A stretch of DNA of 54,220 nucleotides from contig CAYSXS010000005.1 in assembly GCA_964435065.1 (NCBI GenBank), forward strand, positions 1-54,220, read 5' to 3'. Below are positions 4,372-54,220 of this stretch, one piece after another (position 1 is the first letter of the stretch; the number at the start of each line of letters is the position of its first letter). A program made the translations under genes and the position numbers. The notes under the pieces were generated by a model. It was given only the letters and a program-made list of their open reading frames with translations, did not search any database and had not been told where the DNA came from. The stretch comes from an uncultured Gammaproteobacteria bacterium (lineage in GTDB: Bacteria; Patescibacteriota; Patescibacteriia; UBA2196).

Positions 4372-4399
4372 TAATATAGGTTAATTGTACTTACAACAT

Positions 4400-41056: not shown

Positions 41057-41137
41057 ATTGGTTTAATTATATCATATATTTAAAGGGAAATAAAAAACAC
41101 CCCCCCAAGACATGAAGCCCTGGAAGGGTGTGCTAAT

Positions 41138-42022
41138 CTAAAAAATTTGTTGGAACAGAATCTTCCAACACTCATCTTCAGCAACAGGTTTGATATAATC
41201 AAACCTTATAACTGTAGATTTTGTGATGAAAAGATTTAATCCAACTGTCCAACCGTCTTGATAATCTATATCATTGACTTTGAGCCGTTGATATAAACCT
41301 GCCATTTGGACATATTTGGAAAAATCAATTGTGCTCATGATCCACCAACCTTGTTTCTGGTCGATGTGATCAATTTTATTGTAGCCACAATTGACCCAAA
41401 TACTGTCAAAAACTGAAACCTTGCTTCCTGATGACCAACTGAAATCAACTCCAGCTATCCTACGTAACCCATCTGGTTGCTCTCCTGTGCGATATATTGC
41501 ACCAAGATTAAAACCATATGCTAAATCACGAGTTACGCGACTAGTGAGATCTAAAGACTTATTATTGTCCTTAAATTCACCAGAGCCGTTAGTGAGGCCA
41601 GCCATTGCCCACCATTTATCATAGATCTCTTCTAAGAAGATCCCATTCCCGCAAGGAATGTTGAATGCTGTAGAAGGGTATCCAATTATTGGTAGCAAAA
41701 AGGGTGATGGAAATTGATATGTTGCTGGGTCAAGTGTACGCCCAACATGTAACTTTGGTAGCCAAATGATGGACGTCGAAAAAACAGCGTTAGCAAAACC
41801 TAATTGAAATTCTCCATTAACAAAATCAGCGTATGTATCATATTTAACACTAATTCCTTGCCAACCATATTGTGAATTAGTTTTAAATCCAACCCTAAGT
41901 CGTGGTAATGAAAAATTAGAACTATCAGTCTGAGCTTGGCCAAAGCCATAAAAACCTTCATCAGCATGAATATAGCTAGCTGATAAGATAAAAATAACGA
42001 GGTATAAAAAAAATCGTTTCAT
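41138..42022 (-). CDS. Secreted porin-like beta-barrel candidate
   Basis: Signal peptide, alternating amphipathic strands, LTNGSG..DNN, C-terminal Phe. Confidence 0.55.
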   Translation of the reverse strand: MKRFFLYLVIFILSASYIHADEGFYGFGQAQTDSSNFSLPRLRVGFKTNSQYGWQGISVKYDTYADFVNGEFQLGFANAVFSTSIIWLPKLHVGRTLDPATYQFPSPFLLPIIGYPSTAFNIPCGNGIFLEEIYDKWWAMAGLTNGSGEFKDNNKSLDLTSRVTRDLAYGFNLGAIYRTGEQPDGLRRIAGVDFSWSSGSKVSVFDSIWVNCGYNKIDHIDQKQGWWIMSTIDFSKYVQMAGLYQRLKVNDIDYQDGWTVGLNLFITKSTVIRFDYIKPVAEDECWKILFQQIF

Positions 42023-43151
42023 TGGAAACTCCTTTAAAATTGTTCAAAGTATAATTAATTATTTTTACTCGAACAAAATTTCCAGGAGCACGGCGACCAA
42101 GACTTCTGGCCACCCATGAAAGAAATTTCCAAAGTGGTCCATTGTTCCATAACCCCCAAATAAAAAGCAATGAGGTTGTTATTTTTAAATATATGGTTAT
42201 TAGAGAAACAAAGAAATTAAAATATTCTCTAATAATATTAAAAATGTGTTTATAAGAATTTACTAAAACCACAATGGCCGTATGTAAAAGGTTAAAATCT
42301 TCTTCATTTGTCTTAGGATCTTCAGGCATAGAACAAGTAACTTTTACATTATCTATTGCTGTATCTTTGGAAATAGATGGTTTTAAAAAAGACAGGGCAA
42401 AAAATATTGCTATTATATACCCCCAAACCAACTCAAAATCCTTAAGATTGTCTTCTCTTTTTTTCATCTGTCTCAATTGATACTTAAACCTCTGAGTAAA
42501 TGCTTCAAAACCACCCATCTCCCAATATATAAGAGCACCCAAAGGACCTATTAGCATACAGAAAATGAAAGACAATTTATCATCCACATCCTCAAAATAA
42601 TATTTTTTTTGTGGCCAACGAATAATGAAAAGTATTATTATCAAAAAAGGAAAAAAATTGCACATTCTGCGGTGTAAAAACAGAAATACAGCTTTCCAGT
42701 CGACTTTACTATCCCTTCCGTTTAATAAGAAGGATCTTTCTTGACATAATTTTTGTCCAAAACTATTCATAAAGCATTGCCCGTGCGAAGATTTTGAGTT
42801 ATAAATCTCCTTTCCGATATCAAGGTACAATCTTGTTAAGCTATACTGTTTATCCTTGATTTTGGATGAAAGAGATGTAAAACCAAAACCTCGCAAACTA
42901 TCCGATAAAAATCTCATTGCAGTTTCAATCACAACAAAATCTTTATGGTTTTCTTTTTTTTCCGCTACAATTTTTAATCCGTGCTTATATAAAGAGTCAG
43001 CCTCTTTAGATAAATTGAAAACCTCCTCATGAGTAAGTCTCTTTGAAGGAGGCAGGGATTCTTCTATCAAGCATTTTCTAATACGGCCAGAATTGGACGC
43101 GAAAAATGCTAAAACAGAAAGAAATAAAGCGATTTTCTGCCATTTCAACAT
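41976..43151 (-). CDS. Hypothetical membrane protein
   Basis: 391 aa, several hydrophobic segments, AGGAGG SD. Confidence 0.6.
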   Translation of the reverse strand: MLKWQKIALFLSVLAFFASNSGRIRKCLIEESLPPSKRLTHEEVFNLSKEADSLYKHGLKIVAEKKENHKDFVVIETAMRFLSDSLRGFGFTSLSSKIKDKQYSLTRLYLDIGKEIYNSKSSHGQCFMNSFGQKLCQERSFLLNGRDSKVDWKAVFLFLHRRMCNFFPFLIIILFIIRWPQKKYYFEDVDDKLSFIFCMLIGPLGALIYWEMGGFEAFTQRFKYQLRQMKKREDNLKDFELVWGYIIAIFFALSFLKPSISKDTAIDNVKVTCSMPEDPKTNEEDFNLLHTAIVVLVNSYKHIFNIIREYFNFFVSLITIYLKITTSLLFIWGLWNNGPLWKFLSWVARSLGRRAPGNFVRVKIINYTLNNFKGVSNETIFFIPRYFYLIS

Positions 43152-43268
43152 AGTATTTACCTCCTACTAATAATTTGATTAATAATGATCTATTTTTGTT
43201 TATTTTTTATACCCAACTTTAGCATATTTTTTATTAAAAGTCAATGGTTGATATCAACATGCAAAAAC

Positions 43269-43301
43269 AAAAAATACTCACAAAATTTATGAGTATTTTT
43301 T
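43269..43301. terminator. Hairpin abutting the first att core; inferred original tRNA terminator (B' arm)
   Basis: AAAAAATACTCA-9nt-TGAGTATTTTTT, directly after CCA on the minus strand. Confidence 0.7.
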
Positions 43302-43330
43302 GGCAGGGGCTCGTGGAGGATGTTAGAACT
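43301..43330. repeat. att repeat 1 (half copy, array boundary)
   Basis: TGGCAGGGGCTCGTGGAGGATGTTAGAACT. Confidence 0.92.
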
Positions 43331-43400
43331 ATTACACGACCGAAAGATATATATTTTAATATATCCAACCTACTATTATAAATTTAAAATTTGATAAAAA

Positions 43401-45032
43401 TTAGTAACCACCTGGTCCGTGACCACCACCGCCACTTCCACTATTATACCCAAAAACTTGAGTTGTATTAAAATAATTTATTAATCTACCATTAAACCAC
43501 TCTTTGGTAATAGGAGCTGTACTGGAAGAATTTCCATAATATAAATCAGACCAAATAAAATTATTGTCAACTTGATTATCAATTGTAAAAGCAGTTTGAG
43601 GAGCTAAAACTTCGTTACCTCCATCACCTAAGTGAGTAATAGATATTGAATAATTATTACTTGTCTTAACAACATCAGCCATTATTTGATAAGTTTTGGA
43701 AGTACCAGCTTGTACTTGCTCATAAGAGGAATAATAAGGATAAAATTCAATTAAACCACTTGCGGTAGTACTAGCCAAGGAAATAAGAGAACCATTATTA
43801 TAAAGTTGAAAATTAGAAACTTGAATATCGCCTTCTATCTCTACATCAAAAGTCATTTTATACCAAGCTACATCACCTGTTGCCTCAGCAATAACTGAAA
43901 AATTATAAAGTTCTTCTACGCCATTATTTAAACTGCCTGTTGGTAAATTATTACGAAAAACAGTAGGTAAAGACTTGAATAGGTAAATTTTATTAGTTTC
44001 ATAACTACCACTCTTGCTAGATTGGTTATAAATGTCACCAGTCGATAATCCCCTGACAGTTATGCCAGTATTATTTAATGTTAATTTAATACCATCGCCT
44101 GAAGTAACTGATCCATAAGTATTAATAGGTGAAAAATCAGCCTTAAGAGTCATTGTTTTTGAAACACCTTTAGGGATAACAAAAAGGTTATTATGTGAGT
44201 TTAATAAAATATTTTCACTGGAAGTTGCAAAACCCTCAGCTATTTTAGTAGTTCCATCATATAAAGCTAATTTGTCAATCATATATGCGTTACAATTATT
44301 GTATCCATCTATATTAAAATACATTTGTTGTATTCCTACATCTTCTAAACTTGATTGAAAGTTCATAAAACCAATAGTGTTTCCAGTACTATTAGCTAAA
44401 TAAGTTTTAGTCGCAGGGTTATTTGGTCCAGTAAATACCTTAAAATCACCATAGACTGTCTTGACCAACATGCCTTTTAGAGATGAGACTCTTTTTACCT
44501 TAACTCTCTTGTTAGATATTTCTCCATAGGCTTTAATACCATTTTTAAGAGTATTAAATCTATGAACACTATTAACCTTAATAGAGCCTGATATGTCGCC
44601 CTTTAAAGAAATGATTTTACTAGTTCCTTTGGGTATTACTAAAGCTGGGTCTAATGTTATAACTATTTGTTTACTTGAACCATCAATTGCATTACTTATA
44701 AGAGTAGAAGAATCATAAATAACCAAATTAGTAATATATGAGCGTTTAGCACCTTTTTTAACTCGGTGGTAAAATTTTATTTTTTCTACCCTTATATCTT
44801 CAATTGAATTTGAAGCATCAAGAGTTATGTTAGTAAGTAATTGTCGGTTTGTGCCAGCTAAAACGTCAACTCGCTTAGTTGGATTTGTTACTGAAAGCAA
44901 TATTTCTTGTTTAGGACGTCTGTTGAATTTAGATTTTTTAGTTTTTGCTTCAGCAGTCCCTAAAGATAAAAGATTACTTGCAAATAGGGAAAAAATAAGC
45001 ACAGGAATAAGGATTTTGTTGTTTAATTTCAT
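43401..45032 (-). CDS. Secreted beta-rich surface protein with internal repeats (cassette 1)
   Basis: Signal peptide; repeated LVIPKGTSKIISLKGD / FVIPKGVSKTMTLKAD / VQAGTSKTYQIMAD units. Confidence 0.75.
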   Translation of the reverse strand: MKLNNKILIPVLIFSLFASNLLSLGTAEAKTKKSKFNRRPKQEILLSVTNPTKRVDVLAGTNRQLLTNITLDASNSIEDIRVEKIKFYHRVKKGAKRSYITNLVIYDSSTLISNAIDGSSKQIVITLDPALVIPKGTSKIISLKGDISGSIKVNSVHRFNTLKNGIKAYGEISNKRVKVKRVSSLKGMLVKTVYGDFKVFTGPNNPATKTYLANSTGNTIGFMNFQSSLEDVGIQQMYFNIDGYNNCNAYMIDKLALYDGTTKIAEGFATSSENILLNSHNNLFVIPKGVSKTMTLKADFSPINTYGSVTSGDGIKLTLNNTGITVRGLSTGDIYNQSSKSGSYETNKIYLFKSLPTVFRNNLPTGSLNNGVEELYNFSVIAEATGDVAWYKMTFDVEIEGDIQVSNFQLYNNGSLISLASTTASGLIEFYPYYSSYEQVQAGTSKTYQIMADVVKTSNNYSISITHLGDGGNEVLAPQTAFTIDNQVDNNFIWSDLYYGNSSSTAPITKEWFNGRLINYFNTTQVFGYNSGSGGGGHGPGGY

Positions 45033-45133
45033 AATATTAATTAAATTAATTGATATTTTATAATATAGCATCTTAGCACGAATTTTAAATAATGTCAACA
45101 ATATTTTTTTTATCCAGTCTTTTTTCCCCTAAC

Positions 45134-45196
45134 CAAAAAATCCCCTAACATTAGCAGAGAATCTCTTGGCAGGGGCTCGTGGAGGATGTTAGAACT
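45134..45196. repeat. att repeat 2 (full, attP-like)
   Basis: CAAAAAATCCCCTAACATTAGCAGAGAATCTCTTGGCAGGGGCTCGTGGAGGATGTTAGAACT. Confidence 0.95.
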
Positions 45197-45206
45197 GTTT
45201 TGATTC

Positions 45207-45509
45207 TTAAATAGCGGGTTGAAATATTTTAACCTGCTTTTTCAATACATCCACCATTTCTTCAGCTTGAATCTCTAATTCATAATGTGATTGTAAATTA
45301 AGCCAGAATGCAGGAGAAATATTGAAATATTTACTTAGACGCAAAGCAGTATCAGCCGTAATAGAACGATTACCGTGAACTATTTCGTTTATCCTACGTG
45401 GGGCAACATCAATATCCTTAGCTAAACGATATTGGCTAAGCTCCATAGGTTTAAGAAAATCTTCGTTTAAGATTTCTCCAGGATGGATTGCTTTTATTTT
45501 TTTACTCAT
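45207..45509 (-). CDS. higA: HigA/VapI family antitoxin (cassette 2)
   Basis: HPGEIL, RINEIVHGNRSITADTALRL, FWLNLQ. Confidence 0.93.
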   Translation of the reverse strand: MSKKIKAIHPGEILNEDFLKPMELSQYRLAKDIDVAPRRINEIVHGNRSITADTALRLSKYFNISPAFWLNLQSHYELEIQAEEMVDVLKKQVKIFQPAI

Positions 45510-45619
45510 ATTTATATATAGTACAAATTGCAGAAGCCACCTGTTACAGTGGCCTCGCGTCCTGCCACCGAAGCAACAGGATCGATATTTTACTTAAATT
45601 ACAAAAAACAATAAAATTT

Positions 45620-45874
45620 TTATAAATTTTCTAAAAATCTGGTTACCAACTTATCTTCACCAATTTCTTTTAATTCCTTTAAAATCGCTCTTTGACATTT
45701 TAATTTTCTGCTGTGTGGAATCATAATAAATGATCTTTGCATTTCTTGTTTATATTCTGGTGGAATTAGATACTTATCGTGTGGACTTCGTCTAGACGGA
45801 TGAGGTTCTTTAATAAAACCGATTTTTAATAATGCCCTAATGCATTCTTTTTTCGAAAAATTTGCATTTGCCAT
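45620..45874 (-). CDS. HicA-like toxin (cassette 2)
   Basis: ALLKIGF..SPHDKY..IMIPH pattern; adjacent to a HicB-like gene. Confidence 0.6.
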   Translation of the reverse strand: MANANFSKKECIRALLKIGFIKEPHPSRRSPHDKYLIPPEYKQEMQRSFIMIPHSRKLKCQRAILKELKEIGEDKLVTRFLENL

Positions 45875-45879
45875 ATCAG

Positions 45880-46179
45880 TTATGCTAATTGTACCTTGCG
45901 TCCTTGGCTTTTAAATTCAAAATTTCCAAACTTATACGCTCCAGGCAATAAATCACCTTCCTCGTTTGGAACATCAAAATAGCACAAAACAGCATCTGAA
46001 ACTTGATACGGAAGCTTTTTGATATTCTTGCTTTGAGTAATAAAACCTGGCAAATCCGGAGAAGTAATAATAATCCAATCTTTATTTATCTCTGTCTCAA
46101 ACTTGATGTTTAAAGGAATGCCATGATCAAACATTGTTTTCCTTGATACTGGTTTATATTTTTTAAATAAATTAAACAT
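45880..46179 (-). CDS. HicB-like antitoxin (cassette 2)
   Basis: SPDLPGFITQ..VSDAVLCYFDVP. Confidence 0.7.
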   Translation of the reverse strand: MFNLFKKYKPVSRKTMFDHGIPLNIKFETEINKDWIIITSPDLPGFITQSKNIKKLPYQVSDAVLCYFDVPNEEGDLLPGAYKFGNFEFKSQGRKVQLA

Positions 46180-46254
46180 GTCTTTATTATACATCTTTTT
46201 AATTATTTGATCAAATAAAAAGCTTTTTAGTTCTAGCCTCCCTCAGCCCCAAAT

Positions 46255-46317
46255 CAAAAAATCCCCTAACATTAGCAGAGAATCTTTTGGCAGGGGCTAG
46301 TGGAGGATGTTAGAACT
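46255..46317. repeat. att repeat 3 (full, attP-like)
   Basis: CAAAAAATCCCCTAACATTAGCAGAGAATCTTTTGGCAGGGGCTAGTGGAGGATGTTAGAACT. Confidence 0.95.
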
Positions 46318-46355
46318 AGATTAGCTAACAATAAAAGTATTTCTATATTAAATTA

Positions 46356-47063
46356 TTAATCTTTATAACAAAAATCATGAGTATAGAAACCGTCTGGTAA
46401 TTGTTCAGCAAAAGAACATTTTAATGAGTCTTGTGTTTTTAAAAGTAATTTCCATTGGTTATTTTCTTTTTTTGCATACCACTCTGCACCTGTTCTTGAA
46501 AAGCTTATAGATCCTTTTGTGTACTCTTCTATTTGTTTTTCTACACAAACTAAAGCATCTTGGTCATTGTCTAAATTTACTAGATTATAAAAAGTATCAT
46601 AATTTACCTTATCTTCTTCCTTTAAGTTTGCACAGCTGATAAAATAAATTTTATCTTTTATGTGCCATGAAATAGTGCACTTCAAATCTCTTCTTTCAAA
46701 ACCAATAGTAGAATTGTTAAATTCACTTTCTACAGGATTTGTGTTTTGTAAATTTTTTGTAAAACTAAGACTTTGAAAGAAAGAACTAATTTGTTTATTA
46801 ATATTTTCAATATCTTCTATGATATTACTTATTAAATATGAGCTATCTTGCAAACAAATTCTATTATCATTATTTAAGGTCCATCCGCTAACTCCTTCTT
46901 CAGTTTTAAGCATCTTATCAAAAAATTGACTACTAATTTTAGAAATAATCGATTCGGGTGTTAAATCTTCATTATTATCTTTTGGCTTTGTTAACCAAAA
47001 AACAGCTATTAAAATAGCTAGGATTACAATTAATACTAATAAAGTTTTTGTTATTTTTTTCAT
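46356..47063 (-). CDS. Membrane-anchored extracellular hypothetical protein (cassette 3)
   Basis: N-terminal TM anchor, six Cys. Confidence 0.7.
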   Translation of the reverse strand: MKKITKTLLVLIVILAILIAVFWLTKPKDNNEDLTPESIISKISSQFFDKMLKTEEGVSGWTLNNDNRICLQDSSYLISNIIEDIENINKQISSFFQSLSFTKNLQNTNPVESEFNNSTIGFERRDLKCTISWHIKDKIYFISCANLKEEDKVNYDTFYNLVNLDNDQDALVCVEKQIEEYTKGSISFSRTGAEWYAKKENNQWKLLLKTQDSLKCSFAEQLPDGFYTHDFCYKD

Positions 47064-47196
47064 AAATCGGATATTTAATATTAATTGAAAGATAACAGAA
47101 AGTTAATGAAAAAGCAAGGAGATATAATCTGATTATATTTAAATAAATGAAAAAAGAGCAGTTTATAGACATGCTCCATGTTAGGTCTGTTTGTGG

Positions 47197-47661
47197 TTAT
47201 ATTCTTTTTAATGCCAGTTTTTGTAATTTAATAAGGTGTTTTAATGTAGCCTTCCAACTACCTTCAAAATTTATTTCTTTTTTTGTCCATATTATTATTC
47301 CGTGTTCCTCCCAGTTTCTTAACCTTACCCTGGCTGTATCGTCAGACTTGAACTCAGCTACTAAAATTGCTGGGCAGTGATCGTTACCTATTGTATCAGG
47401 CCATTCATAGCCAGCAACAAATTGCTCAATCGTAGCCAGGCTTGAATAAACAACAACTATTTTTTCTTGGCAAGCTTGGTTTGCTGTTTTATCAAGTCCA
47501 CTAGGGATGATCAAAAAATCTTCTTGATTTCCAGCCAAACAAAGATAATTATCCATTTCCAAATCTTGAATTGTACAATGAAAACTCAGATCAAGCATAT
47601 CGACAACAGTAGAATCTGGTCCAATTTTTCTTAAGCTTTCTATTAAATTCTGACGTCTCAT
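47197..47661 (-). CDS. Hypothetical protein (cassette 3)
   Basis: 154 aa, GGGAG SD. Confidence 0.6.
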   Translation of the reverse strand: MRRQNLIESLRKIGPDSTVVDMLDLSFHCTIQDLEMDNYLCLAGNQEDFLIIPSGLDKTANQACQEKIVVVYSSLATIEQFVAGYEWPDTIGNDHCPAILVAEFKSDDTARVRLRNWEEHGIIIWTKKEINFEGSWKATLKHLIKLQKLALKRI

Positions 47662-47763
47662 TATATATTCTCCCAGTTTATGATTATTAAATGAATTTTC
47701 TATTTTTAAAACTTCAATTTAAATTAAAATCTTAAAAATAGAGGTAGCTTGAGTTTAAAAGGG

Positions 47764-48258
47764 CTACCAGACCTTCTCCGCCCACGACGCGGTGTTACTC
47801 GTGGCAATGTGTGAAACAGGTTTAGGCGAAAAAATCACCTGCCAATTTATTAGGACACCCTGCTCTTTGTGTCCACAACAACCACATAAATATTGAACCC
47901 AGATCATTTTTTTAAAATTGTAATGTTTTTCTGGTTTAAATTTTAATGGTTGTGGAGGTGTTTCAAAGTGATGTTCTACAAAATCTTTCACTTTTCGCCA
48001 GCCGAGGGAATAACAAAACCAATTCTCAGGTTTTGAAATCCTACGAAATCGAAATTCACTCCTGCCCGTCTCGGTATATTGTGTTAAAAACAATTTAACC
48101 GATTTCTTTTCAACAGGGAATGCATGAATTACGTTTTCGATCTTCCTACCGCGATGATCTAGGAAGACCATCTTTTTCAAATCATCGGCACCTCTTTCTA
48201 AGGTATTTTTTTTTGAATAATTTGGATCATTCAAAAAAATAACACTTTTCTTTTTCAT
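47764..48258 (-). CDS. Basic hypothetical protein (cassette 3)
   Basis: AGGAG SD before ATG 48258; CGCCGH motif. Confidence 0.55.
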   Translation of the reverse strand: MKKKSVIFLNDPNYSKKNTLERGADDLKKMVFLDHRGRKIENVIHAFPVEKKSVKLFLTQYTETGRSEFRFRRISKPENWFCYSLGWRKVKDFVEHHFETPPQPLKFKPEKHYNFKKMIWVQYLCGCCGHKEQGVLINWQVIFSPKPVSHIATSNTASWAEKVW

Positions 48259-48818
48259 GCTTTCTCCTATTTTATTATAAAAATTGTGAGAATTGCCACA
48301 CCTTTTGATGCACAAGGTTATTTGTGGCCAACTGGTGGTCGTCAAACCTTCCCTGCCAGTACAGGAGTTTTTTCTCTAATTAAGAGAATAAATATAATTA
48401 TTATCTCTTCTCACTGAGTTTAATAGCTTTCTCCGTATGGTTATAAAACCATGTTTTCCCCTTTCAACCTCAGAAAAACAGAGTTCAGCGTATTTCTTAT
48501 GCGAAGCTGGACATAAAGAAAACTCATACCCTCATCCCTTAATAGAGCATGCTAACAACTGAATCAGACAATGCGACGCAACATCTAATCCAGAAGTAAA
48601 ATGTTGTTCTTAAAGCTATACGAGTGCATGTATTGTGGTCTAGGACATGTCCTAATTTAACACTGATATGTGTCCACTACATACATCAAGGCATCTACTT
48701 TAAGGTTTAATTCAACATTCCCAAAGAGCATGTTAATGAATTTATATAAATTTTTACAATTTATAATTAATATTATACACTATATTAGATATTTGTCAAG
48801 TATATTTATCTACATAAT

Positions 48819-48881
48819 CAAAAAATTCCCTAACATTAGCAGAGAATCTTTTGGCAGGGGCTAGTGGAGGATGTTAGAACT
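48819..48881. repeat. att repeat 4 (full, attP-like)
   Basis: CAAAAAATTCCCTAACATTAGCAGAGAATCTTTTGGCAGGGGCTAGTGGAGGATGTTAGAACT. Confidence 0.95.
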
Positions 48882-48944
48882 AAATTGATTAGGCATATAA
48901 AATATATTTATACTTTACAGTATCAAAATTAGTTTATTAACTAT

Positions 48945-49730
48945 TTACTTTCTAGCTAACCAAACCCTAAAATGAGTTTCAGATTTTAAATTTATTTTTT
49001 TAACCTTAAATCCTACTTCTTTCATAATTTTTTCAAGCTCTTTTTCTTTTAAATCAAAAGTTATATTTGGAAGTCCCGTTTCTTTACCATCAAAAGTTCT
49101 TCTAATCATCATTGCTTCTCTATACCTTCTACTAGGTATTTTTTTAGTATAAAATATTAAATCTTCTTTTTCTCTTTTTCCTACTTTAATTTGGGCGGTC
49201 ACATCTTTATGAGGTTTTTCATTGTCTGGAAATTTATCAATATACAAATAACCACCTTTTTTTAATACATTATAAAAATTTTCCAAAGTTTTTCTATAAC
49301 TGTCTAAAGAAGATTTTTCATTTATAGTTTGTTTTTTATTCCAACCACCATCAGCGTAAATAAAAGAATTGCCTCTACAAAATAAAAAATCATAAGATTC
49401 TTTTTTATAATTTTTAGGAATTTGTTTCCACGATATTTTTTTAATTTCTGTGCTAATTTTTAATTTTTTTGCCCTTTTTTTAAAGACTTGAATTTCATCA
49501 TCCATTAAATCCATGCAGTCAATATCATATCCTTTTTGCCTTAGATAAAGTGCAATAAATCCTCCACCAGCAGAAGTATCTAATAATTTACTTTTTTTAT
49601 TAATATTGTTCTTTTTAAATAAATCCATTATTTCAGATACATATTTATTTTTGTTATACAACAAATTATGCAAACAAACATCCCACAATTCTGCAAACAA
49701 AGGTTCTTTTTTAAATTTAAATAGTTTCAT
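48945..49730 (-). CDS. Class I SAM-dependent methyltransferase (cassette 4)
   Basis: LLDTSAGGG, YDFLFCRGNS, LKKGGYLYID. Confidence 0.88.
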   Translation of the reverse strand: MKLFKFKKEPLFAELWDVCLHNLLYNKNKYVSEIMDLFKKNNINKKSKLLDTSAGGGFIALYLRQKGYDIDCMDLMDDEIQVFKKRAKKLKISTEIKKISWKQIPKNYKKESYDFLFCRGNSFIYADGGWNKKQTINEKSSLDSYRKTLENFYNVLKKGGYLYIDKFPDNEKPHKDVTAQIKVGKREKEDLIFYTKKIPSRRYREAMMIRRTFDGKETGLPNITFDLKEKELEKIMKEVGFKVKKINLKSETHFRVWLARK

Positions 49731-49740
49731 ACAATTTTTA

Positions 49741-51066
49741 TTAATTATTTTGAGTCCATATAGCTTTCTTGCTCAACAGATCTCCAAGCATCTCATTTAC
49801 TTTGTAATACATTTTTTTAATTACTTTTTCATTTAAATGAGGCATTACATGTCCTTCTAGCCCATGGGCTACGACTTTTGGTAAATCTTTATGAATATTA
49901 ATATAAACACCTTTATCTTTATACTTATCATATAATGCTGTACCTGGGAAAAGTGTAGTAAAATGAAGTTGAACCATATCTTTTTTAGGATCTAATAATT
50001 TTTTCAATAACAAAACCGTATTTTTTATAAAAGTACTTTCAGTATCATCTGGTAAACCAAATTGAATTGAAGCACAAACCCTTATGTTATTATTTTTTAA
50101 GTGTGTAATTGCATTAGTTACACTCTCTTTTGTTATATTAAATTTATTAGCTCCCCAAATTGCTTTTTTCGTAACTGTTTCCACTCCAAGATAGACTACT
50201 AAACATCCACTTTGCACTAACATTTTTGCAATTTCATCATTTATTTTTTCAACACGGGTTTTTAAAATCCATTGACTCTTGTTTTTCTTTAAATCTTTAC
50301 AAATTTCTTTTGTCCTTTTTATATCAACCAGCATTTCATAATCTTCAAATACAAAGCTATTATGACCTAATTTACGAAGATATTTTAGTTCTTCAACAAC
50401 CTTATCTACTGAACGCATCAAAGTTTTCTTTCCACAGATTCGGGAAGAAGCACAATAAGTGCAATTATATGGACAGCCTCTGCTAGTTAATATAGTAACT
50501 GGATGTTTTTCAGCTATAATCTCTGGTGGTAAATATTTTTTATAACTAATAAAATCTAATTTCCGATCTGGAAATTTAAAAAAGTTAATATCCTCCAATG
50601 GCTCTGAAGGATTTACAACTATCTTTCCCCCCCCATTCCTAAAGCTAATTCCTGGCAAAGAATATAAATCTTTTATTTTTAAAGGTTTTTTTATTTTTTT
50701 GCCAATCTGTTCAATATCTATATTACAACAAAAATCAACAAATTTATTTTGTAAAAATTCATTATATTCTATCTTTGTTGTGGCTCCGCCAAGCATAATT
50801 TTTACCTTTGGTAGTTCTTTTTTTATCTTTTTGCAATACTTAAAAGTTTCTTTTTCAGTGACATTAGTAAGACTAAACCCAATAATATCTGGCTTAAAAC
50901 CACTTTCTTTAATATATTTAAAAATACTATCAAGTGATTGTAAATTTGCATCAAAACATTTTACTTCCTCCTTGATATGTTTAGTTAAATACGTAGCCAC
51001 TGTTGCTATTGATAGAGGAAAAGCAACATTGTATTTATATTTTGGCTGAATTAAAATCCATTTCAT
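49741..51066 (-). CDS. B12-binding-domain radical SAM protein (cassette 4)
   Basis: N-terminal cobalamin-binding-type domain, TSRGCPYNCTYC, LGVET, FGLP, FPGT. Confidence 0.9.
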   Translation of the reverse strand: MKWILIQPKYKYNVAFPLSIATVATYLTKHIKEEVKCFDANLQSLDSIFKYIKESGFKPDIIGFSLTNVTEKETFKYCKKIKKELPKVKIMLGGATTKIEYNEFLQNKFVDFCCNIDIEQIGKKIKKPLKIKDLYSLPGISFRNGGGKIVVNPSEPLEDINFFKFPDRKLDFISYKKYLPPEIIAEKHPVTILTSRGCPYNCTYCASSRICGKKTLMRSVDKVVEELKYLRKLGHNSFVFEDYEMLVDIKRTKEICKDLKKNKSQWILKTRVEKINDEIAKMLVQSGCLVVYLGVETVTKKAIWGANKFNITKESVTNAITHLKNNNIRVCASIQFGLPDDTESTFIKNTVLLLKKLLDPKKDMVQLHFTTLFPGTALYDKYKDKGVYINIHKDLPKVVAHGLEGHVMPHLNEKVIKKMYYKVNEMLGDLLSKKAIWTQNN

Positions 51067-51093
51067 ATTTTTTTATTTAATAATTAATAATTA

Positions 51094-54000
51094 TTATTTT
51101 TTTGCTAACCAAACCACAAAATGCTTTTCTGATTTTAAATTTAATTTTTCAACTTTAAAACCAACTTTTTTAAGCAAATCTTCCATTTCATCTTCTGTTA
51201 AATCATAAGTCATATTTGGCAATCCTGTTTCTTTTCCGTTTTTATCACGCAACAACATTTGAGCATAACGCACATCTTTTTCTGGCACTCTTTCAACATA
51301 AAAGATAACATCTTTTTTTTCTTTGGTTTTTTTAATTTTTAATGTCGCAACTACTTTTTTATCTGGAATTTCTGAATCTCTAAATTTATCTATATATAAA
51401 TATCCGCCTTTTTTTAATATTTTATAATAAACTTTCAAACAATGTTTCATTGCTTTTAAAGTTTGCCTTCTATTTATAGAAATTTTTTCATGCCAACCCC
51501 CGTTTGCCATTATAAAAGCATTACCTCTGTTAAGTAGCAGGTCAAAAGTATTTGGTTTAAAGTGCTTATCTAAATTTTTCCATTCAGAAATTACTGTTTT
51601 GTGTTTGATTCCTTTTTCTTTTAAATAATTTTTAAACGGTTCTAAAATTTTTAATGATTTATCAGAAGTTGAAACATTATAACCATCTTCTAATAATTCT
51701 TGAATAAAAAATCCAGGACCAACACTTGTATCTAAAATCTTTGATTTTTTGTTTATTCCTTTTTTTCCAAACATTTCTTCCATATCTTCCATATATTCAT
51801 TAATATCATAAAGCAATTCATATTCACACAACTTCCACAATTCAGGAAATTCTGGCTCTTGTTGAACCTCAATTTCTTTTAAATTGTCTTTATCAGAGAC
51901 ATATTCCATTTCTGCACCAGTGGCCAAATATCTTTCTGAATCAGGACCCAAAGGAACATTAAAAAATTTAAATACTCCTTTATTTTTTTCCTGCAACATC
52001 AGTTTGGTATAAAGTTCAGCTCCTCTTGTAACAGCATCCCTACACATGGCTGGTGTTAACATAACTAAAATATTATTCCTTCCAGATAATTTTGACTCTA
52101 AAATATTTTTAGAAATATAATCAAAATTTACATCTTCTGCTTTGCCAAATAATTCTGCTAAAAACTGACAAAGTTCAATAATACAAAATTCTCCACCAGT
52201 TTTTGATTCAAAAGTATCAAATTTACATGTTTTAATTTGCTGATTATCAAGAATTTTTATTTCTAAATCCAAAGAACCTTCTTTGTTCCCTTTATAATTT
52301 ATAATATCGTCAAAATATTTTTCATTTTCTTTTATAAATTTTCTAAATCTTAACCTTAGAACCGTTTCTCTTATGAATTTATCTTTTCCAAAATTTATAA
52401 CATCACTTTCTTTTAATTTGAATTTGCTTAAAATTTCTTTATAAACTTTAGGTATTTTATTAAGGCCTTTATATCTTGCTAAAAGTTCATCTCTATATTG
52501 TTCAGCTGTTTTATTTTCCTTATTAATTGATGATAATTTTAATTCGTTTATTCCAGTAGTGTCATTAGCAATTGTAACAAGTTTTGCATTGTACCCATGT
52601 GATTTTAATACTTGCACAATATTACAGCCTAATTCCCATGAAAATATTGGAAAAGAAGTCATGCCAAATTCATCTAGCAGATTATGTAGCCTCTCTGGTA
52701 GCAATGGTTTAATACTTGGATAAAAAGAATTTGTTTCTTTGTCTGGAATTGCTAAAAAATGCCCTGCCATTATCACTATATCTGTATTTTTTGGATCCTT
52801 AACTGCAGAAAAAATATTTGAAATTACTTTATTTTTACTATTAACAGGGATAATATTTTTATAATAAATTTTGTCTCTTAATAATTCCAAATTTGGATTT
52901 GTAATCAAACCTTTCTTTTTATCTAAAAAGAATTTAATTTCTTGTGTTACTTTATCTATATCTTTTTCGTCATTATAACAACCTAAGCTAATTCTTAAGG
53001 TTTCTTTTTCTAAAACATTTATTAAAGGAAAAGCACAATGTGAACCATATCTAATACAAATTTTTCTTTTATCTAAATAATCACCTATTTCTTTAATATC
53101 TACATCTTTAATTGAAAAAGATACCACACCAATTTTATTTTCTATTTTTTTAGGTCCATAAATTTCTACTTCATCAATTTTTTCTAAATTTTCAAACATC
53201 CCTTTAATTAACTCTTTTTCGTGTTTTTGTATTTTTTCAAAACCAATTGTTCGAATAAAATCTACTGCCTCAGATAATCCTAAAATGCCCGCGACATTTG
53301 ATGTACCACCCTCAAGACCAATTAATGATTTTATTTCCTCATAAACCAACCTATCTTTATTTTTTCCAAACAGAACTGTTGCATCGCTAATTGTTCCACC
53401 GCCCATTTTAACTTTTTTAACTTTTGGCCAGATATTTTTTAAAACAAATAAAACCCCAATTCCATCTGGGCCATACATTTTATGTCCAGAAAAGGCATAA
53501 AAATCACATTTAATCTTTTTTGTGTCAACGGGAATGTGTGCAACAGCTTGAGCACCATCAACTATATAGAAAATTTCTGGATTAATTTTTTTAACAATGT
53601 TACCAATTTTTTCAATAGGATTAATGTTGCCCAAAACATTTGAACAATGTTGAATTGCAACAATCTTTGTTTTATCATTTAATTTTGATTTTAATTCTTT
53701 AACATCAACTATACCATCTTTTAATCCAATAATTCTAAATTTTACTCCTTTTTTAATCAATCTATCATATGGCAACATATTTGAATGATGTTCTGCTATA
53801 GAAATAATTATTTCATCACCTTTTTTAATTTCATCAAAAATACTATTGACTACTGTATTAATTGAATCAGTAGTATTATTTGTAAACACAATTTCTTCTT
53901 TTTTGGCATTAATAAATCTCGCAACATTTGCTCGTGCGTTTTTAATTGATTCTTCGTTTTTTGTAGCCACAGCATGTGCGCCCCTATGAGGATTGCCTTT

Positions 54001-54120
54001 GAACTCTAGAGATTCTTTAATAACTTTTATAACGCTGTCTGGTACCTGTGTTGTTGCAGCACTATCAAGATAAACAAAATTTTGTCTTCTTGAAAATTCA
54101 AATTGTATTTTTAAATTCAT
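51094..54120 (-). CDS. Fusion of SufS-like PLP cysteine desulfurase, unknown middle domain and class I methyltransferase (cassette 4)
   Basis: YLDSAATT, EHHSN, DGAQ, FSGHKMYGP, EGGT, RYGSHCA in the first ~400 aa; last ~260 aa paralogous to the 48945-49730 protein. Confidence 0.88.
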   Translation of the reverse strand: MNLKIQFEFSRRQNFVYLDSAATTQVPDSVIKVIKESLEFKGNPHRGAHAVATKNEESIKNARANVARFINAKKEEIVFTNNTTDSINTVVNSIFDEIKKGDEIIISIAEHHSNMLPYDRLIKKGVKFRIIGLKDGIVDVKELKSKLNDKTKIVAIQHCSNVLGNINPIEKIGNIVKKINPEIFYIVDGAQAVAHIPVDTKKIKCDFYAFSGHKMYGPDGIGVLFVLKNIWPKVKKVKMGGGTISDATVLFGKNKDRLVYEEIKSLIGLEGGTSNVAGILGLSEAVDFIRTIGFEKIQKHEKELIKGMFENLEKIDEVEIYGPKKIENKIGVVSFSIKDVDIKEIGDYLDKRKICIRYGSHCAFPLINVLEKETLRISLGCYNDEKDIDKVTQEIKFFLDKKKGLITNPNLELLRDKIYYKNIIPVNSKNKVISNIFSAVKDPKNTDIVIMAGHFLAIPDKETNSFYPSIKPLLPERLHNLLDEFGMTSFPIFSWELGCNIVQVLKSHGYNAKLVTIANDTTGINELKLSSINKENKTAEQYRDELLARYKGLNKIPKVYKEILSKFKLKESDVINFGKDKFIRETVLRLRFRKFIKENEKYFDDIINYKGNKEGSLDLEIKILDNQQIKTCKFDTFESKTGGEFCIIELCQFLAELFGKAEDVNFDYISKNILESKLSGRNNILVMLTPAMCRDAVTRGAELYTKLMLQEKNKGVFKFFNVPLGPDSERYLATGAEMEYVSDKDNLKEIEVQQEPEFPELWKLCEYELLYDINEYMEDMEEMFGKKGINKKSKILDTSVGPGFFIQELLEDGYNVSTSDKSLKILEPFKNYLKEKGIKHKTVISEWKNLDKHFKPNTFDLLLNRGNAFIMANGGWHEKISINRRQTLKAMKHCLKVYYKILKKGGYLYIDKFRDSEIPDKKVVATLKIKKTKEKKDVIFYVERVPEKDVRYAQMLLRDKNGKETGLPNMTYDLTEDEMEDLLKKVGFKVEKLNLKSEKHFVVWLAKK

Positions 54121-54220
54121 ACACTAATTATGACACTTTTAAATAATATTACAAATTATTTTGATTTTGACCGCCCCTTGCGTCACGCCCCAATGTTTAG
54201 CATTGGGGAAGGATAGCAAG

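What the first reader, a model, noticed from the sequence alone, without database searches (positions are those of the whole stretch)
43269..54220. Integron-like array of recombinase-less cassettes stacked at a tRNA 3' end, joined by serine-integrase-type attP sites
Seen: four direct repeats at 43301-43330 (half copy), 45134-45196, 46255-46317 and 48819-48881 (63 bp, only 3 variable positions). They delimit unrelated cargo blocks of 1866, 1121, 2564 and >5360 bp, all on the minus strand and none encoding a recombinase. On the minus strand the core reads GCCCCTGCCA. In each full copy an inverted pair CTAACAT...ATGTTAG spans 48 bp and is centred exactly on the GG that would be the CC of the tRNA CCA. 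The leftmost copy has only the right arm, fused to a different terminator hairpin. Established: GCCCCTGCCA is the 3' end of E. coli-type tRNA-Trp, and large serine recombinases use ~50-bp sites with a 2-bp central crossover. Inference: the leftmost site is P-O-B' and the internal ones are P-O-P', as expected if circular cassettes are added one after another at the tRNA-proximal junction by a recombinase acting in trans. The nearest known analogue is SCC/pseudo-SCC stacking at rlmH. I do not know this tRNA-anchored mini-cassette form as a named system.
Basis: partly seen in the sequence, partly recalled or inferred. Interest (0 to 1): 0.92.

Follow-up and report, generated by a model that had tools for sequence, protein, structure and literature searches.

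The report
Recombinase-less gene cassettes stacked behind tRNA-Trp
Behind the tryptophan tRNA gene of a very small bacterial genome lies a row of unrelated gene blocks, separated by near-identical 63-base joints that look like docking sites of a serine-type DNA recombinase, so this looks like one way such tiny genomes take up new genes.

Summary
There are three 63-bp copies with 3 variable columns, plus a half copy. Each full copy holds a 7+7-nt inverted pair spanning 48 bp, centred on the GG that is the CC of CCA. Neither arm occurs elsewhere in the 944-kb genome.

The single tRNA-Trp lies on contig C17, followed by the left-arm sequence. A same-genus genome joins that backbone to the window across a different, 3.2-kb island.

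The right arm, "X", is a tRNA 3'-end look-alike, always 5 nt longer than a real tRNA. Its tail matches whichever tRNA lies upstream (Trp, Met, His, Lys, Gly, Asn, Leu). A 17-nt core of X occurs in 85 of 301 genomes of the class, often in arrays.

In 5 of 25 X-bounded islands a large serine recombinase (LSR) gene lies inside; four abut the tRNA antisense. A sixth holds an LSR fragment reading through X. No island holds a tyrosine recombinase.

Best reading (0.7): these are LSR-type attachment junctions left by successive insertions at tRNA-Trp, and the segments have no recombinase of their own. Assembled contigs of four runs showed no excision. This is a new variant of tandem accretion, not an integron.

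The parts
43301..43330 (-). Terminal X site: a pseudo tRNA-Trp 3' end, GTTCTAACATCCTCCACGAGCCCCTGCCA. It reads as P-O joined to B' (attR type).
   Evidence: The same X plus terminator junction is present in G001 just before the shared backbone.
43265..43300 (-). Z: hairpin plus T-run that follows the terminal X. Read as the old tRNA-Trp terminator (B').
   Evidence: z -5.8. A homologous hairpin sits at the same place in G001.
43336..45130 (-). Segment 1: one ORF, 43401-45101 (566 aa). A signal-peptide-like start follows an internal Met, and the C-terminus is Gly-rich. No family found.
45131..45201 (-). Full joint, copy 1: X (45167-45196) plus Y (45131-45166). Y is an A-tract, hairpin and T-run.
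45202..46251 (-). Segment 2 holds ORFs 45880-46194 (104 aa), 45620-45874 (84 aa), a two-hairpin element at about 45520-45590, and a HigA-type HTH antitoxin gene at 45207-45509. An inverted X look-alike (invX) lies at 46229-46250. A TTGATC-17-TATAAT promoter-like site lies before the first ORF.
   Evidence: (phrog_1381, 3e-25). Window 45189-45516, which holds the antitoxin gene, is 86.6% identical in DNA to a stretch 330 bp beyond the X-Y joint of G016, a genome of another family. The proteins are 90% identical.
46252..46322 (-). Full joint, copy 2 (X plus Y), the reference copy. It is followed by invX.
46323..48815 (-). Segment 3: ORFs 47764-48345 (193 aa), 47197-47661 (154 aa) and 46356-47063 (235 aa, N-terminal hydrophobic stretch). 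No family found.
48816..48886 (-). Full joint, copy 3 (X plus Y).
48887..54165 (-). Block 4, open towards tRNA-Trp. It holds a class-V aminotransferase (cysteine-desulfurase-like) fused to a methyltransferase domain (51094-54120), a B12-binding radical SAM protein (49741-51066) and a methyltransferase (48945-49730).
   Evidence: A 144-nt internal repeat, 78% alike, links the two methyltransferase parts.
54166..54220 (.). Contig-end repeat with the hairpin CCCCAATGTTTAGCATTGGGG, shared with the right end of C26. A second version ends C17 and C4. It marks an unassembled repeat between tRNA-Trp and this window.
41080..43264 (-). Block with two ORFs (391 and 294 aa, signal-peptide-like starts) that lies distal to the terminal X. 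It is absent from G001 and has no X at its far end.

Best explanation
The 63-bp repeats are attachment-site junctions of a family of integrative elements that use a large serine recombinase (LSR) and target the 3' end of tRNA genes in this class of very small, AT-rich genomes.

Read on the minus strand, each joint is X plus Y. X is the element-borne P arm. It is a tRNA T-loop-to-CCA look-alike with a constant distal part (GTTCTAACATCCTCCAC), a tail that copies the end of the target tRNA, and 5 extra base pairs between them. Y is the P' arm, which also works as a terminator hairpin.

The tRNA-Trp gene on contig C17 followed by Y' is the tRNA-proximal junction. The three X-Y copies are complete attP-type joints between neighbouring inserts. 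The leftmost X-Z is the attR-type junction with the old tRNA terminator.

The array was built by site-specific insertions next to tRNA-Trp, each pushing older material outwards.

The segments carry their own promoters, genes and a terminator, but no recombinase. Either they depend on an LSR supplied in trans, or they are stranded remains. The trans source could be the resident 440-aa LSR on C15 or visiting LSR-bearing relatives. I put present-day mobility as separate circles at about 0.3.

Shown: the anatomy, the link to tRNA-Trp, the family-wide tRNA matching, the +5 rule, and the presence of LSR genes inside a fifth of such islands. Inferred: that the LSR binds X and cuts within CCTGCCAAAA, and the order of insertions.
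For: (a) tRNA link. tRNA-Trp plus the left-arm sequence lies on C17. G001 joins the C17 backbone, tRNA-Trp, a 3.2-kb island with two X sites and the window's backbone on one contig.

(b) Family. The X core, with up to 2 mismatches, occurs in 8 of 24 genomes of the order, with 0 hits for the reversed control. In the class it occurs in 85 of 301 genomes; by my count of the rows that is 113 matches against 27 for the reversed control.

(c) tRNA matching. Of 39 X sites in 27 fetched loci, 35 have a same-strand tRNA within 15 kb upstream. The X tail follows the type of that tRNA: CCCTGCCA with Trp, GCAACCA with Met, CCCCA with His, GCTCCA with Gly, GGAGCCA with Asn, GTACCA with Lys and Leu. Metagenome contigs gave 10 more Trp-type sites. 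Three of those contigs hold an ordinary tRNA-Trp prediction upstream; ARAGORN also lists a wrap-around tRNA-Trp at the end of a fourth, L279.

(d) LSR genes. The LSR ORF runs antisense into the tRNA in G014:C2, G015:C34 and G008:C9 (tRNA-Met) and in G048:C16 (tRNA-His), with X 7-14 kb away at the far end. In G015:C41 an LSR lies 870 bp before a Trp-type X. In G050 an LSR C-terminal fragment reads through the joint into the complement of X (...TTWGQQVKDVRT...). That makes 5 intact and 1 remnant in 25 islands.

(e) Independent sample. Starting from LSR genes rather than from X, 6 of 20 LSR frames overlap an antisense tRNA at their 3' end.

(f) No tyrosine recombinase (PF00589) lies between the tRNA and the last X in the islands of the 20 relative genomes and G000 that were scanned genome-wide. 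G048 was not scanned. The ORF scan (108 island ORFs, G048's included, G000's not) showed none among the 25 of 59 families listed.

(g) Geometry. From GTTC to the discriminator base is 26 nt in X and 21 nt in a tRNA, for all seven tRNA types. Rutherford et al. 2013 (PMC3783163, passages read) place the zinc-ribbon-domain motif at positions 16-24 of attP half-sites and 5 bp closer to the centre in attB. The 7-nt inverted arms here sit at positions 18-24 on both sides of the centre.

(h) Turnover. G000 and G001 share flanks at 84-88% identity but differ in island content. The stretch holding the HigA gene is 86.6% identical between families whose backbone is 66-74% alike.
Against: No excision or deletion joint at the repeats was seen when assembled contigs of 4 runs were laid on 41000-54220. 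Such contigs drop rare forms, so this is weak.

Between tRNA-Trp and the array no LSR is assembled, and a gap of unknown content remains. Trp-type islands hold an LSR in only 1 of about 20 cases.

Arrays of X exist in genomes that are not among those listed with a PF07508 hit: G118, G204, G237, and G050 apart from a fragment.

Canonical LSRs recombine only attP with attB (PMC3783163 abstract). Internal attP-type joints therefore need a laxer enzyme, cointegrate circles, or capture of flanking DNA.

The constant part of X is the same in elements whose LSRs are only 23-26% identical and read X in different frames. A protein-DNA fit would more simply predict co-variation.

The inverted 7-mer pair is not kept in all relatives: G016 has 6 of 7 and is off by one, and I saw no such pair in G111 or G118 by eye.

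Six other LSR-tRNA elements of the class use a different distal arm with a 19-nt identity to the tRNA, and no X.
Confidence: 0.7

Rival explanations
1. Island growth by capture rather than by independent cassettes. A few LSR-bearing elements visited tRNA-Trp, excised imprecisely or as tandems, and carried old junctions and neighbouring DNA from earlier hosts. On this reading the X-Y joints are fossil junctions that travelled as passengers, and the segments never moved as separate circles. This is the model proposed for tycheposon islands.
For: Most X-bounded islands lack an LSR: 19 of 25. Arrays persist in genomes that are not among those listed with an LSR hit. In G016 the HigA gene is followed by only the first 9 nt of X, which means decay by deletion. 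No alternative joints were seen in the contigs of 4 runs. The model is in print for Prochlorococcus (bioRxiv 10.1101/2020.12.28.424599, section 3 read).
Against: The three full joints are 95-100% identical over 63-71 bp, while the sequence beyond them is unrelated from the first base. Fossils of different age should have drifted apart. Each segment is a tidy unit of promoter, genes, X and terminator, all on one strand, with no recombinase pseudogene.
Confidence: 0.25
2. The junctions are made by a recombinase other than an LSR: a tyrosine recombinase of the Xer type, or an enzyme not yet recognised. On this reading LSR genes merely share the same tRNA hot spots.
For: A Xer-like gene lies just 5' of the tRNA-Arg/tRNA-His pair beside four His islands (G050, G034, G261, G078). 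Another lies 3.8 kb distal to X in G015:C41. The constant X contrasts with very different LSRs. G001 has a 5' half copy of tRNA-Trp, the kind of scar that anticodon-loop integrases leave.
Against: No PF00589 hit lies inside any island of the genomes scanned genome-wide (G048 not scanned). The Xer-like genes sit outside the islands in conserved synteny. The LSR ORFs cross the exact junction at the tRNA 3' end in 4 X-type elements and 6 further elements. One LSR fragment reads through an internal joint into X. Conservation stops about 30 nt on either side of the core, which is short for the arm-type sites of tyrosine integrases.
Confidence: 0.08
3. An integron-type cassette array without integrase (CALIN). 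The repeat would be an attC site, with TTCTAAC...GTTAGGG resembling the R''/R' boxes, recombined by an IntI-type enzyme at G|TT.
For: The outer 7-mers resemble RYYYAAC and GTTRRRY (consensus recalled, not from a call). In G016 homology to the HigA segment ends exactly at TTAGAAC. The repeat is about 60 bp and can fold.
Against: The half copy keeps 30 nt of the right arm, so its boundary is at CCA and not at G|TT. Boundaries at the tRNA and at terminal sites in 20 or more islands all fall at the tRNA 3' end. The two tyrosine recombinases of the genome score as XerD and XerA types. Both are below the integron-integrase cut-off (226.6 and 98.3 bits against 265), and the 277-aa one is shorter than the 315-position model, which it matches in two stretches. 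The segments have their own promoter-like sites, and a terminator separates them.
Confidence: 0.03
4. A portable RNA or regulatory module that multiplied by duplication or homologous exchange, with no site-specific recombination. The module would be a pseudo-tRNA end plus terminator, perhaps a 3'-end stabiliser.
For: Y is a strong bidirectional terminator-like hairpin. Every joint lies right after a stop codon and before a promoter-like site. X-Y-invX folds into one long hairpin (z -4.9).
Against: No Rfam family matches at E up to 1. The module is absent from the rest of the genome. This reading does not explain why the X tail copies the upstream tRNA in seven tRNA types, or why LSR ORFs end in it.
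Confidence: 0.06

Closest known systems
Tandem accretion of integrative elements with cis-mobilizable elements (CIMEs) at tRNA or other 3' gene ends. Review PMC5704250: passages read. Pavlovic 2004 and Bellanger 2011 were seen only in its reference list.
   Same: Direct-repeat att sites bound segments that have no integrase. Newer inserts sit next to the target gene. Internal sites are hybrid or complete att sites.
   Different: The described cases are mostly tyrosine-integrase ICE/IME remnants of Firmicutes with decayed transfer genes. Here the segments are 1.1-2.6 kb, tidy, without gene wrecks, LSR-linked, and in a lineage with no described conjugation.
SCCmec / pseudo-SCC composite islands at rlmH with CcrAB/CcrC (recalled; no paper read).
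   Same: Large serine recombinases. Insertion at the 3' end of a housekeeping gene. Stacked elements separated by short direct repeats. Some units lack ccr genes.
   Different: The target here is a tRNA 3' end. The LSRs hit the CcrB model at only 57-103 bits against a cut-off of 900. The joints are 63 bp and near identical. The organism is free-living, from salt-lake metagenomes.
Tycheposon-driven tRNA islands of Prochlorococcus (bioRxiv 10.1101/2020.12.28.424599: outline, section 3 and passages read).
   Same: Streamlined genomes. Islands next to a few tRNA genes. Partial tRNA copies between tandem elements. Most island DNA lacks an integrase.
   Different: There, 910 of 937 elements carry a tyrosine recombinase and the rest an LSR. 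The partial tRNAs are true copies. Here the arm is a conserved look-alike with +5 bp, and the only recombinase class found inside the islands is the LSR.
Phage-type serine integrase attP/attB sites (Rutherford et al. 2013, PMC3783163: abstract and passages).
   Same: Site size about 50 bp. Inverted half-sites. A distal motif at positions 16-24 in attP, 5 bp nearer the centre in attB. Short common core.
   Different: No biochemical data exist here. The B arm is a tRNA T-arm. Internal attP-type joints in a chromosome are not expected of a strictly attP-by-attB enzyme.
Integrons and CALIN arrays (recalled; Cury 2016 seen only as a reference).
   Same: A single site gathers unrelated small gene blocks, each ending in a conserved, partly palindromic recombination site.
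   Different: No IntI gene. The boundary is at the tRNA CCA, not at G|TT. The segments have their own promoters and terminators. The link is to serine, not tyrosine, recombinases.

Membership tests
LSR (serine integrase) attachment sites | Site of about 40-50 bp made of two imperfect inverted half-sites around a central crossover. | tested here: met
   A 48-bp span with 7-nt inverted ends is centred inside the common core CCTGCCAAAA. Conservation ends within about 35 nt of the core on each side.
LSR (serine integrase) attachment sites | The distal (zinc-ribbon-domain) motif lies 5 bp closer to the centre in attB than in attP. | tested here: met
   GTTC to the discriminator base is 26 nt in X and 21 nt in the tRNA, for 7 tRNA types. 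The rule was read in PMC3783163. Only the P/B side could be tested. The P'/B' side gave one suggestive case: Y against Y' differ by 5 bp.
LSR (serine integrase) attachment sites | A cognate LSR gene in or beside the element. | tested here: inconclusive
   Not in this array as assembled. One LSR lies elsewhere in the genome. An LSR lies inside 5 of 25 X-bounded islands of relatives, plus 1 remnant.
LSR (serine integrase) attachment sites | Recombination with a 2-bp staggered cut at the central dinucleotide. | not testable with these tools
   Needs an in vitro or in vivo assay. Comparison only bounds the crossover to CCTGCCAAAA here, and to CTG in other Trp arrays.
CIME / tandem accretion | A segment bounded by att sites in direct orientation that lacks integration and transfer genes, lying next to a target gene end. 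| tested here: met
CIME / tandem accretion | Derived by decay of an ICE or IME, with remnants of mobility genes. | tested here: not met
   No recombinase, relaxase or transfer-gene remnant among the 10 cargo ORFs. Every stretch between joints is filled by intact ORFs on one strand.
Integron / CALIN | An IntI integrase with its extra domain and an attI site. | tested here: not met
   TIGR02249 scores of 226.6 and 98.3 bits are below the cut-off of 265. The proteins score as XerA and XerD types.
Integron / CALIN | Cassette boundary at G|TT of the R' box. | tested here: not met
   The half copy and the tRNA junctions break at the CCA region. One boundary in G016 does fall at TTAGAAC.
SCC elements | Ccr-family recombinase and insertion at the rlmH 3' end. 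| tested here: not met
   CcrB, CcrA and CcrC models score at most 103 bits against cut-offs of 700-900. The target is a tRNA.
REP/MITE-like dispersed repeats | Many copies scattered over the genome. | tested here: not met
   Only the four copies of this array in 944 kb.
Tycheposons | A lineage-specific tyrosine recombinase (mostly) with a replication module, facing inward at one end. | tested here: not met
   No PF00589 hit inside islands. Primase zinc-finger and FtsK-gamma domains each occur in one of the 108 island ORFs scanned; which ORF holds them was not printed.

The most novel reading that the evidence does not exclude
Very small bacterial genomes of this class run an LSR-based counterpart of the integron. 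Minimal cassettes (promoter, one to three genes, and a 63-bp attP whose outer motif mimics the universal tRNA T-loop while its inner part copies the acceptor end of the chosen tRNA) are excised as circles. They are inserted next to tRNA genes by recombinases supplied in trans, and they pass between families. The split of the site into a constant part and a tRNA-matching part would then be a natural, modular way of retargeting serine integrases.
Probability: 0.25. Interest if true: 0.85.

Novelty: new variant of a known kind. Interest (0 to 1): 0.62.

Why it matters
How genomes of about 1 Mb, with no known conjugation or competence genes, gain and lose genes is poorly understood. My searches found no paper that holds both 'Candidate Phyla Radiation' and 'large serine recombinase'. 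One unrelated paper holds both 'Patescibacteria' and 'serine recombinase'.

The data point to tRNA 3' ends as the main landing pads, and to LSRs as the enzyme class: PF07508 is in 179 of 301 genomes of the class.

The X arm gives a simple sequence tag for finding such islands. Its tRNA-matched tail and constant +5-bp design offer a natural series of LSR sites with different targets. That is of interest to people who engineer serine integrases.

The cargo is dominated by secreted or surface-looking ORFans and toxin-antitoxin genes. These are the kinds of genes expected to matter for an epibiotic life style.

Tried and rejected
Rfam scan of 41000-54220 at E up to 1: no family.

PHROGs on 9 cargo ORFs: only the HigA-type antitoxin matched.

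A degenerate 17-nt X pattern in genome contigs and viral contigs was too loose, with 14 fixed bases. Most of the 120+76 loci are chance hits. 14 loci passed two of three context filters; by eye I took about 11, all from genome contigs, as true X sites, and the two viral loci that passed looked like chance. None of 20 chosen loci held an LSR within 8 kb.

The exact 34-nt X-Y junction pattern in metagenome contigs gave 0 hits. A 29-nt Trp-type X pattern gave 10 contigs, none with an LSR-like frame.

Contigs of runs X1, X2, X4 and X6 were laid on 41000-54220. The unitigs break at the repeats. The 8 listed joints have sides of 20-24 letters, do not lie at the repeats, and I take them as spurious. 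There was no loose end informative for the right contig end. This gives no verdict on circles or deletions, because assembled contigs drop rare forms.

Overlaps between contig ends did not join C17 to C5 directly.

Rejected idea: that conservation of X is explained by coding for the LSR tail (W.G.VEDVRT). This is true for G050, but the frame differs in G015:C34.

Rejected idea: that Y is the native tRNA-Trp terminator of the family. Two of six family genomes have it, while their sister genomes do not.

The HicA/HicB likeness of ORFs 45620-45874 and 45880-46194 is recalled from memory only. Pfam and PHROGs gave nothing for them.

The LOOT literature search found no text about the motif in the paper's main text.

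Not used: protein database searches, structure prediction, complex prediction.

Full report
WHAT IS THERE

The window is the whole of contig C5 of a 944,537-bp, 27-contig assembly with about 30% G+C and 42 tRNA genes, rated 96.7% complete. Near-identical DNA is held by runs labelled salt lake metagenome.

One search finds the reported repeat family at 43265-43335, 45131-45201, 46252-46322 and 48816-48886, spaced 1866, 1121 and 2564 bp. In each full copy CTAACAT and ATGTTAG span 48 bp and are centred on the GG of TTGGCAGG. Such a centred pair arose in 61 of 20000 shuffles (a test designed after the fact). The leftmost copy has only the right arm, fused to another hairpin plus T-run. Neither arm occurs anywhere else in the genome.

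The blocks between the copies are filled by minus-strand ORFs. They hold a 566-aa secreted-looking ORFan, a block with a HigA-type antitoxin and two small ORFs, three ORFans, and an open block. The open block carries a cysteine-desulfurase-like/methyltransferase fusion, a B12-radical-SAM protein and a methyltransferase. None is a recombinase.

ANATOMY OF THE JOINT

Read on the minus strand the unit is X (AGTTCTAACATCCTCCAC[G/T]AGCCCCTGCCA) followed by Y (AAAGATTCTCTGCTAATGTTAGGGGATTTTTTGATT). Y is an A-tract, hairpin and T-run. The half copy is X followed by Z, a different terminator.

The genome's only tRNA-Trp lies at C17:26993-27069, 630 bp from the contig end. It ends ...CCGCGCCTGCCA and is followed by Y', which is Y lacking AATGT. 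Next comes an inverted, shortened look-alike of X (invX), then a NUDIX gene, then the contig end. The same invX follows copy 2 in the window.

LINK TO THE tRNA

C17 and C5 do not overlap. C17 and C4 share one 53-nt end repeat with a hairpin; C5 and C26 share a second, similar one. An unassembled repeat therefore sits there.

Synteny settles the link. In the same-genus genome G001 one contig aligns to C17:7476-27074 through tRNA-Trp. Then it has 3.2 kb of its own. Within that stretch lie a degenerate X-Y-invX and, 510 bp on, an X plus terminator. The contig then continues into C5:41079 downward at 84-88% identity.

The variable island of G000 is therefore at least 13.8 kb (C17:27075-27703, the gap, and C5:54220-41080). 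Its content differs from that of its sister species. The 2.2 kb at 41080-43264 is also missing from G001.

X IS A FAMILY-WIDE TAG OF tRNA-LINKED ISLANDS

The 17-nt core of X, with up to 2 mismatches, occurs in 8 of 24 genomes of the order, with no hit for the reversed control. In the class it occurs in 85 of 301 genomes; I count 113 matches against 27 for the control in the rows.

I fetched 27 loci. Of 39 X sites in them (up to 3 mismatches), 35 have a same-strand tRNA within 15 kb upstream. The four without one had no tRNA upstream in the fetched stretch; some lie close to the start of their contig. The 9 nt after the core copy the acceptor end and discriminator of that tRNA. Trp, Met, His, Lys, Gly, Asn and Leu versions were seen.

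Direct arrays of two to four X sites, 0.5-4 kb apart, recur behind tRNA-Trp (G111, G029, G118, G204), tRNA-Lys (G016), tRNA-His (G050) and tRNA-Gly (G237), and in G013. In arrays the internal sites share their downstream arm with each other, and often with the sequence that follows the tRNA. The last site has another downstream sequence.

In the Trp arrays of G111, G118, G029 and G204 the common core ends at CCTG or CTGC, before CCA. In G000 the core CCTGCCAAAA does not decide.

Ten JGI metagenome contigs carry Trp-type X sites. Three of them hold an ordinary tRNA-Trp prediction upstream, and ARAGORN lists a wrap-around tRNA-Trp at the end of a fourth, L279.

WHICH RECOMBINASE

In G014:C2, G015:C34 and G008:C9 an LSR gene of 549-560 aa lies antisense to an initiator-like tRNA-Met. 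Its ORF runs through the tRNA, and an X with a ...GCAACCA tail lies 7-14 kb away at the other end. G048:C16 shows the same at tRNA-His. In G015:C41 a 594-aa LSR lies 870 bp before a Trp-type X.

In G050 an LSR C-terminal fragment reads across an internal joint into the complement of X, ending ...TTWGQQVKDVRTCLVALQMTQ. That is what an uninterrupted attP would look like in such elements.

So 5 of 25 X-bounded islands hold an intact LSR and one holds a remnant. None of the islands in the genomes scanned genome-wide holds a PF00589 hit between tRNA and last X. G048 was not scanned that way. A Pfam scan of 108 island ORFs, G048's among them, listed Resolvase and Recombinase in 3 members each, and showed no Phage_integrase among the 25 of 59 families listed.

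Xer-like genes lie outside four His islands, on the 5' side of the tRNA-Arg/His pair, and 3.8 kb beyond X in G015:C41.

As a test not biased by X, I took 19 high-scoring LSR loci of the class. Six of 20 LSR frames overlap an antisense tRNA (Leu, Lys, Glu, Asn, Gln) at their 3' end. For three of those six I found a distal arm that repeats 19 nt of the tRNA end; none of the six has an X.

LSRs are common in the class: PF07508 is in 179 of 301 genomes. G000 has one, 440 aa, with all three LSR domains. It is 41.5% identical to the Trp-linked LSR of G015:C41.

GEOMETRY

From GTTC to the discriminator base X measures 26 nt and a tRNA 21 nt, in every tRNA type seen. X is thus a T-loop-to-CCA look-alike with 5 extra bp (CCACG or CCACT) between the T-stem and acceptor parts.

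Rutherford et al. 2013 (PMC3783163, passages) report that the zinc-ribbon-domain motif occupies positions 16-24 of an attP half-site. They report that it lies 5 bp nearer the centre in attB, and that attP differs by a linker-binding segment.

This maps neatly here. The T-loop box of the tRNA would be the distal motif of the B arm. The same box in X, 5 bp further out, would be that of the P arm. The tRNA-specific tail would be the proximal part. The 7-nt inverted ends of the G000 joint sit at positions 18-24 on both sides. This is inference; no binding was tested.

WHAT SPEAKS AGAINST, AND WHAT IS OPEN

- No LSR is assembled between tRNA-Trp and the array. Trp islands hold one in only about 1 of 20 cases.
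- Arrays exist in genomes that are not among those listed with a PF07508 hit: G118, G204, G237, and G050 apart from the fragment.
- Strict LSRs do not make attP-type joints in a chromosome.
- X is the same in elements whose LSRs are only 23-26% identical.
- Contigs of four runs cover the whole stretch and none shows a joint at the repeats. One contig of run X6 bridges copy 2. No excision or deletion joint appeared. Assembled contigs cannot show rare circles.
- The role of invX is unexplained. X-Y-invX folds as one hairpin, z -4.9.

COMPARISON WITH WHAT IS KNOWN

The kind is known. Tandem accretion with integrase-less CIMEs is described (PMC5704250). SCC composites are a further case (recalled). 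tRNA islands built by visiting elements are described for Prochlorococcus (bioRxiv 10.1101/2020.12.28.424599).

This case differs in four ways. The enzyme class is the LSR. The host group is different. The segments are small and tidy. The arm is a conserved look-alike with +5 bp and a tRNA-matched tail.

It is not an integron. There is no IntI, the boundary is at CCA, and the segments have their own promoters and terminators.

My searches found nothing in print on LSR elements of this bacterial group. Those searches cover only the held library.

VERDICT

The mechanism, LSR-type junctions from successive insertions at tRNA-Trp, I hold at about 0.7. Present-day mobility of the segments as separate circles I hold at about 0.3. 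Novelty: a new variant of a known kind. Interest: 0.62.

Noticed in passing
G000:C15:23922-24048 (minus), beside the LSR gene C15:24180-25502; also G000:C2:82614-82738: A LOOT RNA (Rfam RF03000, 78.8 bits) lies 132 bp upstream of the genome's only LSR gene and is divergent from it. Among 61 relatives, 20 genomes have LOOT. In the 6 genomes whose LSR genes I had fully listed, 6 of 9 above-cut-off copies lie 0.2-6.4 kb from an LSR on the same contig; three of those are inside tRNA-Met LSR elements. LOOT may be a hallmark part of these elements. The main text of its source paper says nothing about it, and its supplements were not opened.
   Followed up: partly
window 46229-46250; G000:C17 about 27101-27123; G001, G016 and metagenome contig L276: An inverted, shortened look-alike of X (invX) follows the terminator after copy 2 and after the real tRNA-Trp of several genomes. 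X-Y-invX folds as one long hairpin (-44.9 kcal/mol, z -4.9). It is absent at copies 1 and 3. Its role is unknown.
   Followed up: partly
window 54166-54220, with the right end of C26; the right end of C17 with the left end of C4: Four contig ends finish in two versions of a repeat of about 53 nt with the hairpin CCCCAATG-N5-CATTGGGG. An unassembled multi-copy element lies in the island between the NUDIX gene and the window's right end.
   Followed up: partly
window 45520-45590 (minus): A two-hairpin element (z -3.9) lies between ORF 45620-45874 and the HigA-type gene. It is 89% conserved in G001, where it precedes a different gene. No Rfam match.
   Followed up: partly
G001:C68:31923-31960: A 5' half copy of tRNA-Trp (nt 1-38, ending in the anticodon loop) lies 87 bp upstream of the real gene. 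This is the kind of scar left by integration in the anticodon loop.
   Followed up: no
window 41080-43264: A block of two secreted-looking ORFs (391 and 294 aa, no family) lies between the terminal X-Z and the GH1 glycosidase gene. It is absent from G001 and has no X at its far end.
   Followed up: partly
islands of G016 (Trp, Lys), G014, G015 (Met) and G209 (Trp): The large ORF just before X often belongs to one family of 338-738-aa proteins. Among the G016, G014 and G015 proteins a shared stretch of 120-166 aa is 41-70% identical; the 338-aa G209 protein matches them at 29-37%. A 201-203-aa protein next to the LSR is shared by G014 and G008 at 51% identity.
   Followed up: no
window 4385-5365, and upstream of the tRNA-Arg/tRNA-His pair in G034, G050, G078 and G261: A Xer-type tyrosine recombinase gene keeps a conserved place just 5' of the tRNA-Arg(tct)/tRNA-His pair across families of the class.
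   Followed up: no
window 48945-49088 and 51094-51237: A 144-nt direct repeat, 78% alike, links the stand-alone methyltransferase gene with the methyltransferase end of the 1008-aa fusion protein. The proteins are 45% identical over 262 aa.
   Followed up: no
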